From positions 1,160 to 65,159 of the forward strand of contig JBCBOR010000018.1 in assembly GCA_039821125.1 (NCBI GenBank): 64,000 nt of DNA, read 5' to 3'. The stretch comes from Pseudomonadota bacterium (GTDB taxonomy: Bacteria > Pseudomonadota > Alphaproteobacteria > Rhodobacterales > Rhodobacteraceae). Below, piece by piece: positions 38,765 to 40,867 of the stretch. A program made the position numbers and the translations under genes. The stretch's first letter is position 1; every line of letters begins with the position of its first letter. The notes beneath the pieces were generated by a model. That model was not told the origin of the DNA. It saw only the letters and a program-made list of their open reading frames with translations, and did no database searches.

Positions 38765-38791
38765 GTAGGGTGGGGTTGAACCCCACCCTAC
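38765..38791 (-). repeat. 11-bp perfect palindromic stem-loop GTAGGGTGGGG-TTGAA-CCCCACCCTAC overlapping the permease stop codon
   Basis: Read directly. The TAG stop of the 38788..39861 gene (38790-38788) lies inside the right arm. Confidence 0.8.
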
Positions 38792-39861
38792 TTCATTCCA
38801 GTCAGTGTAATCCCCTCGATGAAGCGGCGCTGGGCCAGCAGGAACGCGACGATCAGCGGGGTCACGATCACGGTGGCCGTTGCCATCATCGGGCCGAAGA
38901 ACGAGCCGTCCGCATCGCCCTTGAACTCGCGCAGGCCCAGCGGCGGGGTGAAGAGATCACGCGTTCCCGTCACCACGATGCGCGGCCAGAAATAGTCGTT
39001 CCAGTGCGCCACGACCGAAAAGATCGCAAAGGCCAGCAGCGCCGGGATCGCCGTTGGCAGCATGACCTTCCAGATGATCCCGAACTCGGTCATCCCGTCC
39101 ATGCGGGCGGCATCGATCAGGTCATCGGGCACCGTCATGAAGAACTGGCGCATCAGAAAGATCCCGAAGACCGAGATCGTCCACGGGATGATCAACGCCG
39201 CGTAACTGTTCGTCAGGCCAAGATGAGAGAGGCCGAGATAGAGCGGCAGGGCAATCGCGTGGACCGGAATAAGCAGGCAAAACAACACCATAGAGAAGAC
39301 AAAGTCCCGCCCGCGCCAGCGCAGCTTGGCCAGCGCATAGGCGCAGGGCAGCGCGACGATCACCTGGATCAGAAAGATCGAGGCGGTCACGATCACACCG
39401 TTCAGAAGGTAGCGCAGCAGCGGTGCTTCCTGGAACGCCATGGAGTAGTTGAAAACAACCGGAAGGCTGGAACAGTCGGCCTCGATCCGCTCCATCATGG
39501 CGGTCTTGATCTCGCGGTCGGTCTTGCCCGGAAAGTCCGGGCGTGCGGCCTCGATGGTGGTGCGATCCGGCTCGGCGCGCTTGGCACAGCGCTCGTTCAC
39601 CATCAATTCCTGAGCGCCGAAAAAGCCGCCGACATTGCGCTCGATCTCGTGTGGGGCCTTCAGCGAATAGCTGAGCATCACGTAGAACGGCAGCAGAACG
39701 ATCAGTGCGCCGACGATCAGAACGGCGTGCTTGATTGCCTCCCCGGTTGACCACCCCAGCCGGGATGCCGGGCGTATGGCAGCCGTATGGCTTGCGTCTG
39801 GCACGGGTATGGCAGGCGTATGGCTCACGTCTGGCACCTGTATGGACAGAATGTCGGCCAT
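38788..39861 (-). CDS. CUT1 ABC transporter permease (UgpE-like) with an unusual repeat-encoded N-terminus
   Basis: EAA loop DAARMDGMTEFGIIWKVMLP. The only ATG upstream of TM1 is at 39861, which puts the 11-nt repeat array (39774-39850) inside the first 30 codons. The true start is uncertain. Confidence 0.8.
   Translation of the reverse strand: MADILSIQVPDVSHTPAIPVPDASHTAAIRPASRLGWSTGEAIKHAVLIVGALIVLLPFYVMLSYSLKAPHEIERNVGGFFGAQELMVNERCAKRAEPDRTTIEAARPDFPGKTDREIKTAMMERIEADCSSLPVVFNYSMAFQEAPLLRYLLNGVIVTASIFLIQVIVALPCAYALAKLRWRGRDFVFSMVLFCLLIPVHAIALPLYLGLSHLGLTNSYAALIIPWTISVFGIFLMRQFFMTVPDDLIDAARMDGMTEFGIIWKVMLPTAIPALLAFAIFSVVAHWNDYFWPRIVVTGTRDLFTPPLGLREFKGDADGSFFGPMMATATVIVTPLIVAFLLAQRRFIEGITLTGMK
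39774..39850 (-). repeat. Seven tandem 11-nt units (plus strand GT[A/C]TGGC plus 4 variable nt) with a 33-nt super-period
   Basis: Read directly: gtatggcagcc gtatggcttgc gtctggcacgg gtatggcaggc gtatggctcac gtctggcacct gtatggacaga. On the coding strand each unit is nnnnGCCA[T/G]AC. Confidence 0.9.
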
Positions 39862-39946
39862 TTCGCCGCGACCACGCGCTTTGCAAAGCGCGTGGTGAAA
39901 GGCGCGTCGACGCGCCTTCTGCCGCGCTTGGGGCTGGCGTTGCAGG

Positions 39947-40867
39947 TCATGAATAGTGCACCCGCCGCTCGACCAGCCACCGCTGGATCAGGGTGAGGCC
40001 CAGCACAAAGATCAGGAAGATCATCGTGATCGCCGAGCCCAGCCCGATCAGGTTCTGCTGGATGCCCTTTTCGAAGATCGCGAACATCATCACGTAGACG
40101 GATTTCGACGGCCCACCGCCTTGCGGGTAGAACGCCTCGACCGTGTCGAAGACCTGAAAGGACCGGATGCAGGTGATGGTCACAACGAAGACGGTCGTCG
40201 GCCCCAGCATCGGCCACGTGACCAGACGGAAACGCTCCCACCCTGACTTGGCGCCGTCCATCTCGGCCGCGTGGTAAAGCTCACGCGGGATCGATGTCAG
40301 CCCCGCCAGATAGAGCACCATGTTGAAGCCGAACCCCTGCCAGACGCCGATAAAGCTGACAGTCCAGATCGCGTAGTCCCTGTCGCCAAGCCACAGCGGG
40401 AACGTCCGCTCGCAGCCCTGCCGGAAGAAGGCAAACCACTCCAGCCAGGTGCCGCAGCCCCGGGCCAGCGTCTGGTTGATCAGCCCGACCGACGGGTGCA
40501 GCGTGAATTCCCAGACGATCGCCATCGCCAGCAGCGCGGCCATGACCGGCAGAAAGTAGATCGTCTTGTAGACATCGCCGAACCGGCTGACCGAGTTGAT
40601 CAACAGCGCGGCCCCCAGCCCTAACCCGACAGCAAGCGGGACGACGACCAGCACATAGGTCAACGTCGCGGTGAACATCTTCTGGAATGAGGACCGGCTG
40701 ACGATGCGGTCATAATTCTTCCACGCAACCCAATTGAAGCTGTCATTTCCGAGCGAATAGTCGGTGAACGAGAGCGTCGCCGCCACGATGATCGGCAGGA
40801 TCAAAATGGCGATCATCAAGAAGATGGCAGGGGCCACGAACAGGATATGGGCGCGAGAGCGGGGCAT
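39947..40867 (-). CDS. CUT1 ABC transporter permease (UgpA-like)
   Basis: Six TM segments and an EAA loop HAAEMDGAKSGWERFRLVTWPML. The start abuts the stop of the ATPase gene. Confidence 0.88.
   Translation of the reverse strand: MPRSRAHILFVAPAIFLMIAILILPIIVAATLSFTDYSLGNDSFNWVAWKNYDRIVSRSSFQKMFTATLTYVLVVVPLAVGLGLGAALLINSVSRFGDVYKTIYFLPVMAALLAMAIVWEFTLHPSVGLINQTLARGCGTWLEWFAFFRQGCERTFPLWLGDRDYAIWTVSFIGVWQGFGFNMVLYLAGLTSIPRELYHAAEMDGAKSGWERFRLVTWPMLGPTTVFVVTITCIRSFQVFDTVEAFYPQGGGPSKSVYVMMFAIFEKGIQQNLIGLGSAITMIFLIFVLGLTLIQRWLVERRVHYS

What the first reader, a model, noticed from the sequence alone, without database searches (positions are those of the whole stretch)
39774..39861. Seven tandem 11-nt units (7 conserved plus 4 variable positions) at the 5' end of a permease gene in the phosphate-scavenging block
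On the plus strand the units read gtatggcagcc / gtatggcttgc / gtctggcacgg / gtatggcaggc / gtatggctcac / gtctggcacct / gtatggacaga, and they run straight into the ATG at 39861. If translated they encode VPD(V/A)SHT(P/A)AI repeats ahead of TM1.

An 11-nt sub-period is not a multiple of 3. A conserved 7-mer with a free 4-mer looks like DNA-level selection rather than protein-level selection. It is the geometry of helically phased OmpR/PhoB-type response-regulator sites.

On the coding strand, units read CTGCCAT-ACCC, GTGCCAG-ACGC, AAGCCAT-ACGG and CTGCCAT-ACGC, which are one mismatch from the Pho-box half-site CTGTCAT in two units. The neighbourhood (UgpBAEC-like importer, phosphodiesterase, phnCDE) is typical Pho-regulon content.

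There are alternative readings. One is a slippage-prone repeat in which gain or loss of an 11-nt unit shifts the frame. Another is a disordered repeat N-terminus with no regulatory role.
Basis: partly seen in the sequence, partly recalled or inferred. Interest (0 to 1): 0.62.

Follow-up and report, generated by a model that had tools for sequence, protein, structure and literature searches.

The report
Mobile repeat copy, not a phosphate switch
The seven 11-base units are one copy of a short repeat element found about 41 times in this marine bacterium's genome; it sits in the junction between two transporter genes and is probably translated through, so it is not a phosphate-sensing control site.

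Summary
The array is real. Seven GCCAKAC+4N units at exact 11-nt spacing lie at window 39774-39850 on the coding (minus) strand, far above chance.

It is not locus-specific. It is the core of a roughly 105-135-nt dispersed element with 41 full copies in this genome. The element occurs only in some species of this Paracoccaceae genus.

- Orthologues show that the ancestral junction between the two permease genes was an ATGA stop/start overlap with no array.
- The family has no conserved RNA fold, no bias relative to gene strand or GC skew, and is nearly free of stop codons in all six frames.
- One copy lies in frame inside valyl-tRNA synthetase.
- Copies at operon junctions are crossed by a short ORF chained to both neighbours by overlapping stop and start codons. 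This pattern is kept across species.
- Here the old ATG (39950) opens a 41-codon ORF ending in GTGA (39828-39825). Permease 2 probably re-initiates there. A relative, G056, has the same design.

Pho-box similarity is weak: the best adjacent pair has 4 of 14 mismatches. Unit number is the same in contigs from three independent studies.

Verdict: a selfish repeat that works like MIRU or RPE elements, with a novel phased direct-repeat architecture. How it moves is unknown.

The parts
39947..40867 (-). Permease 1 (UgpA-like, BPD_transp_1). Its TGA stop (39949-39947) overlaps the ancestral permease-2 ATG (39950-39948) as ATGA.
   Evidence: The ATGA overlap is conserved in 10 or more same-genus orthologues.
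39825..39950 (-). Bridging ORF of 41 codons (MTCNASPKRGRRRVDAPFTTRFAKRVVAAKWPTFCPYRCQT*). It starts at the ancestral coupled ATG and ends at TGA 39827-39825 inside the array.
   Evidence: The analogous 17-codon ORF in G056 is shown.
39871..39916 (.). Locus-specific spacer with two strong hairpins: a perfect 26-bp palindrome at 39871-39896 and the 16-bp palindrome GGCGCGTCGACGCGCC at 39901-39916. It is unique in the genome.
   Evidence: (z = -3.5).
39746..39857 (-). One copy of the dispersed element. It reads CCGACATTCTG, then 7 units, then GCCC-GGCATCC-CGGC...GGTCAAC (a degenerate GTTAAC). The nhmmer hit is C18:40907-41024, which is window 39748-39865.
39774..39850 (-). The array itself. On the coding strand the units are TCCATAC, GCCAGAC, GCCATAC, GCCATAC, GCCAGAC, GCCATAC, GCCATAC at 11-nt spacing. 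It is the only all-'c' unit pattern (no GCGGKAC unit) in the genome.
39825..39828 (-). GTGA. GTG is codon 12 of the long ORF and overlaps the bridging ORF's TGA. AGGT lies 7 nt upstream. This is the proposed re-initiation start of permease 2.
   Evidence: The same GTGA occurs in G056 at L004:3019-3022. It is one of only 6 forward-frame stops among the 41 copies.
39859..39861 (-). ATG of the longest ORF, abutting the element's 5' edge (ATGG|CCGAC). This is the alternative start. It has no clear Shine-Dalgarno sequence and lies 9 nt after the large hairpin.
38788..39861 (-). Permease 2 (UgpE/MalG-like). TM1 begins near residue 43. There is no in-frame ATG, GTG or TTG between the array and TM1.

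Best explanation
The array is the core of one copy of a small non-coding dispersed repeat element of about 105 nt, or about 135 nt with outer TTAAC-bearing arms. The genome holds 41 full copies.

Each copy has a fixed build: CGAC(A/T)TTCTG, then seven heptamers (GCCATAC, with GCCAGAC and GCGGKAC variants) at exact 11-bp phasing, then a GG..TCCCrGCCC tail.

This copy sits in what was an ATGA stop/start overlap between the two permease genes of a Ugp-like ABC importer operon.

The family is almost free of stop codons in all six frames, so ribosomes that enter it read through. At operon junctions a short ORF bridges the element and is chained to both neighbours by overlapping stop and start codons. 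That preserves translational coupling.

At this locus the ancestral ATG (39950) now opens a 41-codon ORF. It ends in GTGA (39828-39825) within the array. Permease 2 most likely re-initiates at that GTG, or alternatively starts at ATG 39861. Under either start, and also under the third in-frame candidate GTG 39804, at least three units of the array encode the disordered cytoplasmic N-tail of the permease.

Shown: family membership, the ancestral empty site, the ORF geometry, its conservation across species, and the in-frame valS copy.

Inferred: that coupling through the bridging ORF is what is selected; that the phased heptamers are binding sites for the unknown protein that mobilises or maintains the element; and that the copy is selfish or neutral rather than regulatory.
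For: Family:
- 40 phased arrays were found by direct scan.
- Alignment shows conserved ends and unrelated flanks.
- An nhmmer profile finds 41 copies of 86-124 nt (40 of them 106 nt or longer), all with E at or below 6e-18.
- The element is present in 6 of 25 same-genus genomes and 0 of 16 outside the genus.

Ancestral state:
- G006, G013, G046, G069, G074, G024, G047, G003, G004 and G064 all have the permease1/permease2 stop-start overlap (ATGA, in G004 and G064 TGATG) and no array.

Read-through design:
- 24 of 41 copies have no stop in any of six frames. Random genomic 100-mers reach this in 2% of cases and shuffles give 0.03 of 41.

In-frame coding copy:
- C2:88051-88173 lies inside a 1058-aa valS ORF. 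It has the same strand and frame as in the permease (...VQVPDASHTGAIHEPDTGHTPAIRPPS...).
- Most relatives have a 15-17-aa loop at that position.

Bridging ORFs:
- Window: ATGA, then 41 codons, then GTGA.
- G056, same site: ATGA, then 17 codons, then GTGA. TAG lies immediately before the GTG, so this is the only possible start.
- C5 copy (phnK/phnL-like genes): GTGA, then 46 codons, then ATGA.
- C8 copy: TGATG, then 41 codons, then a stop 3 nt after the downstream ATG.
- C10 copy: ATGA, then 47 codons, then TGATG.
- At the phnK/L junction the ORF ending in ATGA is kept in G000, G006 and G053 even though array lengths differ. The site is empty in G005, G048 and G019.
- The C8 and C10 sites are likewise variably occupied across species.

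Precedents:
- MIRUs insert at start codons with a coupled internal ORF (PMC12548453).
- RPEs insert in frame into genes (PMC10969869).
Against: - No terminal inverted repeats, no consistent target-site duplication and no partner transposase were found. TTAA(C) flanks at fixed distance occur in only 6-9 of the 41 copies. Mobility is therefore inferred only from patchy presence and absence.
- Several sites (valS, phnK/L, the C8 locus) carry arrays across species, which points to long vertical persistence. That leaves room for a host function.
- Strong heptamer conservation with exact phasing could reflect selection for a host DNA-binding protein rather than for a transposase.
- Which start codon permease 2 uses is untested. 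The GTGA could be chance, or inherited rather than convergent in G000 and G056.
- The element is present here and in G056 (87% permease identity) but absent in closer permease relatives (91-92%). No simple history explains this.
Confidence: 0.8

Rival explanations
1. The array is a PhoB/OmpR-type operator: phased Pho-box half-sites that drive or modulate a phosphate-dependent internal promoter for permease 2, the binding protein and the phosphodiesterase.
For: - The 11-bp direct-repeat geometry is that of Pho boxes.
- CTGCCAT is one mismatch from CTGTCAT in two units.
Against: - The two near-matching units are not adjacent. The best adjacent pair has 4 of 14 mismatches and the spacers are GC-rich.
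- Genome-wide, only 1 of the 25 windows within 2 mismatches of a full Pho box lies in an element copy.
- The pstS upstream region carries TCGTCAT-AAAA-type boxes with A-rich spacers instead.
- The same array sits at 41 unrelated loci, including inside valS.
- Orthologous operons lack it.
- No sigma-70-like promoter lies in 39600-40100.
Confidence: 0.04
2. The dispersed arrays are domesticated docking sites for a host DNA-binding protein. Candidates are a nucleoid-associated, replication- or segregation-related factor, or a response regulator with many targets. On this view the permease copy is one site of a genome-wide system.
For: - Heptamers are conserved while spacers vary, and the 11-bp phasing puts all sites on one helical face.
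- Arrays persist at orthologous sites across species and stay internally homogeneous even when the unit variant differs. Examples are GCAATAC in G056 and GTGCATR in G013.
- A sister family with TACGGAA units has the same layout in G001, G008 and G059.
- Earlier AI note e1-4146963 reports phased GTGTAC arrays across Rhodobacterales. This is a lead, not evidence.
Against: - Orientation does not track GC skew (16:23, p = 0.34) and flips within a single contig.
- There is no bias relative to gene direction: 12 sense against 8 antisense.
- Most same-genus genomes have none.
- Copies decay, as at the G056 permease site and in G013.
- This rival is compatible with the best explanation if the binding protein is the mobilising enzyme.
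Confidence: 0.13
3. The array is a contingency locus. Gain or loss of 11-nt units by slippage shifts the permease frame and switches the importer on and off.
For: - The unit length is not a multiple of 3.
- Arrays at orthologous sites differ in unit number between species.
Against: - The array is identical in unit number, with no gaps, in contigs from three independent studies. X1 has 0 differences over 39500-40158. X2 has 1 difference over 39714-39955. X5 has 1 difference over 39737-39847.
- Units are only about 70-85% alike, with variable spacers, which makes a poor slippage substrate.
- 20 of the 40 scanned arrays have exactly 7 units.
- Contigs can hide rare variants.
Confidence: 0.02
4. 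The repeats are a protein-level feature: an 11-residue repeat N-terminal tail selected for a function in the permease.
For: - The 33-nt super-period gives VPD(V/A)SHT(P/A)AI twice.
- A similar peptide occurs in the valS loop.
Against: - The same DNA is mostly intergenic and occurs in both orientations.
- The heptamer is read in all three frames within one repeat.
- Orthologous permeases have unrelated 15-35-aa tails.
- The G056 tail is decayed.
Confidence: 0.02

Closest known systems
Mycobacterial interspersed repetitive units (MIRUs)
   Same: - Both are small dispersed repeats, each at about 40 loci per genome. The MIRU locus count is from my own knowledge of the literature.
- Both sit between genes of operons, at start codons.
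- Both carry an internal ORF whose ends overlap the neighbours' stop and start codons, so translational coupling survives (PMC12548453).
- The same geometry is seen here at four G000 junctions and is conserved across species.
   Different: - There is no sequence relationship, and the phylum differs.
- MIRUs are 46-101-bp units that vary in tandem copy number (VNTR). This element is a single module built from seven 11-nt sub-units. No copy-number variation was seen at this locus.
- It also occurs between convergent genes and inside a coding loop.
Rickettsia palindromic elements (RPEs)
   Same: - Both are short selfish repeats in an alphaproteobacterium.
- Both insert in frame into protein-coding genes and are translated as extra peptide segments in tolerant surface loops (PMC10969869). 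Here the sites are the valS loop and the permease N-tail.
   Different: - RPEs are palindromic and hairpin-forming, about 150 bp long.
- This element is a direct-repeat array with no conserved fold. Its alifold consensus is empty and the mean z-score is about 0.
- Most copies here are intergenic.
Pho box (PhoB operator, CTGTCAT-N4-CTGTCAT)
   Same: Both have 7-bp direct repeats at 11-bp spacing. The unit CTGCCAT differs from the consensus at one base in 2 of 7 units.
   Different: - The sequence match is poor for any adjacent pair, and the spacers are GC-rich.
- The array is not at a promoter.
- It is dispersed at 41 unrelated loci and absent from orthologous operons.
Dispersed short tandem-repeat elements (cyanobacterial STRR heptamer arrays, Beggiatoaceae TAACTGA repeats, pneumococcal BOX)
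   Same: Both are intergenic, lineage-specific dispersed modules built from short direct repeats, of unknown function (PMC4679880 and PMC4692102, listed).
   Different: - Those are contiguous 7-nt tandem repeats, or 45-nt boxB modules, often of variable number.
- Here the heptamers are separated by 4 variable bases at a helical 11-bp period, in a fixed 7-unit module with conserved non-repeat ends.

Membership tests
Pho box / PhoB operator | Two or more adjacent 7-bp half-sites close to CTGTCAT, with a 4-bp A/T-rich spacer | tested here: not met
   The best adjacent pair has 4 of 14 mismatches. The spacers are ACGC, ACCC or ACGG.
Pho box / PhoB operator | Placed at the -35 region of a promoter of a Pho-regulon transcription unit | tested here: not met
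   The array lies inside an operon, downstream of a coupled start. No promoter-like site was found. Orthologues lack the array.
Pho box / PhoB operator | Bound by PhoB~P, with phosphate-dependent transcription | not testable with these tools
   Only one RNA run was found, holding 4% of the sampled words.
MIRU-like intercistronic repeat | Dispersed copies located between co-directional genes of operons | tested here: met
   12 tandem-sense copies. Four lie right at stop/start junctions: C5, C8, C10 and the window copy.
MIRU-like intercistronic repeat | An internal ORF whose start and stop overlap the neighbours' stop and start codons | tested here: met
   GTGA/ATGA, TGATG and ATGA/TGATG overlaps. 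The window has ATGA then GTGA. G056 is shown. G006 and G053 are shown.
MIRU-like intercistronic repeat | Tandem copy-number variation of the 46-101-bp unit, homology to mycobacterial MIRUs | tested here: not met
   The element is a single module per locus with no variation across three studies. It has no sequence relation to MIRUs. This is a functional analogy only.
RPE-like in-frame intragenic repeat | Inserted in frame in protein-coding genes without breaking them | tested here: met
   The valS ORF of 1058 aa is intact with a 37-aa loop. The same holds in G019, G053 and G006.
RPE-like in-frame intragenic repeat | Palindromic, stable hairpin | tested here: not met
   RNAalifold gives no consensus structure. 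Mean z-scores are -0.02 and -0.5.
MITE | Terminal inverted repeats and a constant target-site duplication | tested here: inconclusive
   No TIR was seen. TTAA lies at fixed distance on both sides in 6 of 41 copies and on one side in 8-9. The genome-wide TTAA frequency is 0.29 per kb. Junction copies show only short, variable duplications.
MITE | A related autonomous IS with the same ends | tested here: not met
   nhmmer finds only the 41 copies plus one fragment in a 98.6%-complete draft assembly. IS copies may be missing from a MAG.
REP/BIME | An imperfect GC-rich palindrome of 20-40 nt | tested here: not met
   The element has direct-repeat architecture. A separate REP-like family, GGGTGCGTC...GACGCACCCTAC, exists in the genome.
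Phase-variable simple-sequence contingency locus | Within-population heterogeneity in unit number | tested here: not met
   Contigs from three independent studies show the same unit number. This is contig-level evidence only.

The most novel reading that the evidence does not exclude
The array belongs to an undescribed superfamily of helically phased (11-bp) direct-repeat elements in Rhodobacterales.

- The unit word differs by lineage: GCCATAC, GCAATAC, GTGCATR, GTTACGGAAG, and possibly the GTGTAC arrays noted elsewhere in this scan.
- The elements are built to be translationally invisible. They are stop-free in six frames, are bridged by coupled ORFs at operon junctions, and read in frame in protein loops.
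- The seven phased words would be the assembly platform for a still-unknown multimeric DNA-binding protein, a mobilising enzyme or a chromosome-organising factor. That protein would co-evolve with the unit word and keep arrays homogeneous at sites that persist across species.
Probability: 0.35. Interest if true: 0.7.

Novelty: new variant of a known kind. Interest (0 to 1): 0.55.

Why it matters
For annotation:
- The start of this permease is a product of a repeat insertion, and so are probably other gene starts next to these elements.
- Pho-regulon predictions based on 11-bp direct repeats would give false positives at 41 loci in this genome.

For biology:
- This is a clean, cross-species example outside Mycobacterium of a selfish repeat that survives at operon junctions by preserving translational coupling with a bridging ORF.
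- It is an example outside Rickettsia of a repeat living in frame inside an essential gene (valS).
- The fixed module of seven heptamers on one helical face implies a specific multimeric binding protein that has not been identified.
- Finding that protein would explain how a direct-repeat element without inverted ends spreads. It would also explain why arrays at the same sites carry different unit words in different species.

Tried and rejected
- Rfam at permissive threshold on 39600-40050: only chance-level hits.
- RNA or DNA structure of the family: no consensus fold and z about 0. A structured RNA, REP or hairpin-MITE reading is rejected.
- Replication-oriented arrays (lead from note e1-4146963): orientation against local GC skew is 16:23, p = 0.34, with mixed orientation within contigs. 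Not supported here. GC skew is weak in this genome (median |skew| 0.017).
- Pho box. A first regex-based scan was rechecked by exact counting.
- Promoter and terminator scan of 39600-40100: nothing found.
- The 85-nt hairpin spacer as part of another repeat family: it is unique in the genome.
- TSD or TIR search: TTAA(C) at fixed distance occurs only in a minority of copies. Junction comparisons gave short, inconsistent duplications. The insertion mechanism is unresolved.
- Phage origin: the viral-contig scan for three phased GCCATAC units found 11 contigs. All are perfect 11-mer iteron-like tandem repeats in unrelated phages, not this element.
- RNA-seq for a transcription start site: only one metatranscriptome, holding 4% of the words. 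It was not used.
- Literature: five full-text searches found no description of such arrays in Rhodobacterales. Most subscription-journal papers are missing from the library.
- A 706-aa ORF spanning the C7:38184 copy is a read-through artefact of the stop-free element, not a gene.
- A strictly genome-specific unit word (full concerted evolution) is not claimed. G013 carries both GCCATAC-type and GTGCATR-type arrays.
Full report
**1. Observation**

- Tandem Repeats Finder reports period 11. Its best score is for period 33 (2.2 copies, 87% matches).
- The repeat finder shows exact 11-nt spacing.
- On the coding (minus) strand the units are TCCATAC, GCCAGAC, GCCATAC, GCCATAC, GCCAGAC, GCCATAC and GCCATAC, each followed by 4 variable bases.
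- The two-unit pattern occurs 6 times in the window, all here, against 0.10 expected.

The array lies in codons 6-30 of the longest ORF of permease 2 (38788-39861, minus strand; BPD_transp_1). The operon order is ATPase, permease 1, permease 2, binding protein, metallophosphoesterase. The best NCBIfam hits are UgpC, UgpA, UgpE and UgpB, but all fall below equivalog cut-offs.

**2. The array is one copy of a dispersed element**

I scanned the whole assembly (5.23 Mb, 246 contigs, 63% GC; the window is C18:1160-65159).
- The scan found 40 loci with at least 3 phased units. Twenty of them have exactly seven units.
- Oriented copies aligned with 90-nt flanks show a defined module. It reads CGAC(A/T)TTCTG, then TCCATAC, then six more units, then GG..TCCCrGCCC. 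The flanks beyond are unrelated.
- An nhmmer profile finds 41 copies of 86-124 nt (40 of them 106 nt or longer; E at or below 6e-18) plus one fragment. The window copy is C18:40907-41024.
- Units 1, 2, 6 and 7 are nearly invariant. Units 3-5 alternate between GCCATAC and GCGGKAC.
- Information content is 1.1-1.8 bits at the seven unit positions and 0.2-0.8 bits in the spacer.
- A subset of copies has TTAA(C) at a fixed distance outside both ends (6 of 41) or one end (8-9 of 41). The genome-wide TTAA frequency is 0.29 per kb. No inverted termini are evident.
- A 101-nt consensus matches 6 of 25 genomes of the same GTDB genus and 0 of 16 outside it. The remaining three are sparse, with 11, 2 and 5 matches.
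- Record titles of the closest loci place the organism among uncultured marine Paracoccaceae, near MAGs labelled Pikeienuella or Limibaculum.

**3. What the family is not**

- No Rfam family matches.
- There is no conserved secondary structure on either strand. The RNAalifold consensus is empty and mean z-scores are -0.02 and -0.5. It is therefore not a REP, an RPE or a hairpin-type MITE.
- Crude GC3-based gene calls put most copies between genes: 12 tandem-sense, 8 tandem-antisense, 7 convergent and 2 divergent. There is no preference for gene strand, and divergent promoter regions are avoided.
- An earlier AI note from another genome (e1-4146963) described phased GTGTAC arrays in Rhodobacterales oriented with replication. 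Here orientation against local GC skew is 16:23 (p = 0.34) and flips within single contigs. That property is not reproduced.

**4. Pho-box test**

In Pho register the half-sites are GTGCCAG, GAGCCAT, CTGCCAT, GTGCCAG, AAGCCAT and CTGCCAT.
- Only two are one mismatch from CTGTCAT, and they are never adjacent. The best adjacent pair has 4 of 14 mismatches, with GC-rich spacers.
- Of the 25 windows in the genome within 2 mismatches of a full Pho box, only one lies in an element copy.
- The pst-phoU-phoB locus was located on C59. The region upstream of pstS carries TCGTCAT-AAAA-type words with A-rich spacers.
- No sigma-70-like promoter or terminator-like site lies in 39600-40100.

Together with the dispersal over 41 unrelated loci, this rejects the PhoB-operator reading as far as sequence analysis can.

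**5. Ancestral state of the locus**

Same-genus orthologues of permease 2 were collected.
- In G006, G013, G046, G069, G074, G024, G047, G003, G004 and G064, the permease 1 stop overlaps the permease 2 start (ATGA, in G004 and G064 TGATG). A variable 15-35-aa tail precedes the conserved (S/T)xxEAxKH-TM1.
- The window still has CACTATTCATGACC, but about 85 nt of locus-specific sequence and the element now follow it.
- The 85-nt stretch folds into two strong hairpins (z = -3.5) and is unique in the genome.
- The junction is an insertion hot spot. G048 and G005 carry an unrelated insert of about 225 nt, and G066 a G-rich insert of about 200 nt. G052 carries a different 11-nt tandem (GCATCCCCTNN, four copies).
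- G056 (L004) carries a decayed array at the same position as in the window.

**6. Translation through the element**

The family consensus has no stop codon in any frame.
- 24 of 41 copies are open in all six frames over the 100-nt core, and 35 of 41 in all three forward frames.
- Random genomic 100-mers are open in all six frames in 2% of cases and in three forward frames in 15%. Shuffles give 0.03 of 41 for six frames.
- The copies share descent, so these are not independent trials. Even so, the variable spacers also stay stop-free.

The window copy is one of only six with a forward-frame stop. That stop is the TGA of an unusual GTGA spacer.
- The ancestral ATG (39950-39948) opens a 41-codon ORF ending at TGA 39827-39825.
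- This TGA overlaps GTG 39828-39826, which is codon 12 of the permease frame. AGGT lies 7 nt upstream.
- G056 has the same design. ATGA is followed by a 17-codon ORF and then GTGA at L004:3019-3022. TAG lies immediately upstream in the permease frame, so that GTG is the only possible start.
- From the GTGA onward, both species have five units plus the GGxATCCCGGCT tail.

Other G000 copies at operon junctions behave the same way.
- C5:86639 (phnK/phnL-like ATPases): GTGA, then 46 codons, then ATGA.
- C8:25915: TGATG, then 41 codons, then a stop 3 nt after the downstream ATG.
- C10:79772: ATGA, then 47 codons, then TGATG.

I probed orthologous sites with a composite flank query and fetched them.
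- The phnK/L junction is empty in G005 and G048 (TGAcgATG) and in G019. It is occupied in G000, G006 (3 units) and G053.
- In each occupied case an ORF runs through the element and ends in ATGA on phnL. The ORF lengths differ by amounts that are multiples of 3 but not of 11. That pattern is what selection for the bridging frame would produce.
- The C8 and C10 sites are likewise occupied in some species and empty in others.

This is the logic described for mycobacterial MIRUs (PMC12548453).

There is no in-frame ATG, GTG or TTG between the array and TM1. At least part of the array is therefore translated as the permease N-tail, whichever start is used. The choice between GTG 39828 (coupled re-initiation) and ATG 39861 (no clear SD, 9 nt after an 11-bp-stem hairpin) is inferred, not shown.

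**7. A copy inside an essential gene**

C2:88051-88173 lies in frame in valS, between KLWNAARFAE and VNRWIIGET. It has the same orientation and reading frame as in the permease.
- Most genus members have a 15-17-aa loop there.
- G000, G019, G053 and G006 carry GCCATAC arrays of 7, about 6, about 5 and 3 units, giving loops of 37, 34, 33 and 26 aa. All four also have TTAAC...GTTAA flanks.
- On a ValRS tree these four fall in one 10-member clade (SH-aLRT 93) together with array-less members. This fits one gain followed by losses, or several gains.
- G001, G008 and G059 carry a different in-frame 11-nt array (GTTACGGAAG units) in the same loop. That unit type is itself dispersed at about 8, 3 and 3 loci in those genomes, against 0-1 for controls. 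It has the same overall layout: CTGT, then units ending in TAC, then a ...CCCC tail.
- In-frame residence in genes is the hallmark of Rickettsia palindromic elements (PMC10969869), although those are palindromic.

**8. Population data**

- A contig from the probable source sample (X1) covers 39500-40158 with no difference.
- A contig from a different study (X2) covers 39714-39955 with one substitution and no gap.
- Contigs from a third study (X5) cover 39737-39847 and 39818-39902, each with one substitution.
- There is no sign of unit-number variation, within the limits of contig-level data.

**9. Conclusion**

The PhoB-operator interpretation is not supported.

The array is a copy of a lineage-restricted, stop-free dispersed element built of direct repeats. 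It occupies a formerly overlapping gene junction and is translated through, probably with coupling preserved by a bridging ORF.

It works like MIRUs at operon junctions and like RPEs in frame in genes, but it is a member of neither family. Its fixed module of seven heptamers at a helical period has no described counterpart that I could find.

Three things remain open: how it moves, what binds the heptamers, and why arrays at the same sites carry different unit words in different species.

Noticed in passing
window 39799-39814 (+ strand) and 39832-39847: Read on the plus strand, successive units form TGGCAC-N5-TGGCA (TGGCACGGGTATGGCA). This is one base from the sigma-54 -24/-12 consensus TGGCAC-N5-TTGCA, with the correct GG-N10-GC spacing. 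Any 11-nt TGGC array produces this by construction. It would point antisense into permease 1.
   Followed up: no
L092 (G048) and L094 (G005), permease1/permease2 junction: An unrelated insert of about 225 nt sits at the same ATGA junction. It is flanked by a duplicated TCATGA(C/T)CG, which looks like a target-site duplication of a different small element.
   Followed up: no
L098 (G052), start of permease 2: A different 11-nt tandem repeat (GCATCCCCTAA, GCATCCCCTTA, GCATCCCCTTT, GCATCTCCCGT) is translated from an SD-preceded GTG as the N-tail MTKASPKHPLSIPFASPVNLSVSEAIKH. Its unit resembles the terminal GGCATCC unit of the window's element.
   Followed up: partly
genome C2:30926, C36:9658 and C38:18846 flanks; window 38765-38791: A separate REP-like palindrome family (GGGTGCGTCCGTGACGCACCCTAC and variants) lies directly next to several element copies. 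It is probably the family flagged in note e1-4323590 at the end of permease 2.
   Followed up: no
L118 (G073) valS loop: A third unit type (GCACCCCGAAA, CCACCCCGAAA, GCACCCGCTT, GCACCCC) occurs in the same valS loop. In my translation the frame appears broken there. This could be an assembly error or a real frameshift.
   Followed up: no
L170 (G013:C1:4045518-4046931): At the site orthologous to G000 C10:79772, G013 has an extra ORF of about 200 codons with a lipoprotein-like N-terminus, plus one of its only two GCCATAC-type element copies. The element lies directly upstream of the His-rich CobW-like gene.
   Followed up: partly
genome C15:42546 (- strand): This is the only perfect CTGTCAT-N4-CTGTCAT in the genome (CTGTCATCGCACTGTCAT). 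No long ORF follows within 400 nt on that strand, so its target gene was not identified.
   Followed up: partly
genome C5:86639 flanks: The two ATPase genes flanking this copy look like phnK and phnL of a C-P lyase operon, with ...DDPQHGYTQLLVNSVLRV* followed by MISIENVAKTFRLHQQGG. C-P lyase genes therefore seem to exist elsewhere in the genome, although the window's phnCDE lacks them.
   Followed up: no
L144-L154 (IMG/VR contigs): Unrelated phage contigs of 34-66% GC carry perfect 3-5-copy tandem 11-mers containing GCCATAC, for example TGAAGCCATAC in five copies. They look like iterons. I take the shared word to be coincidental.
   Followed up: partly
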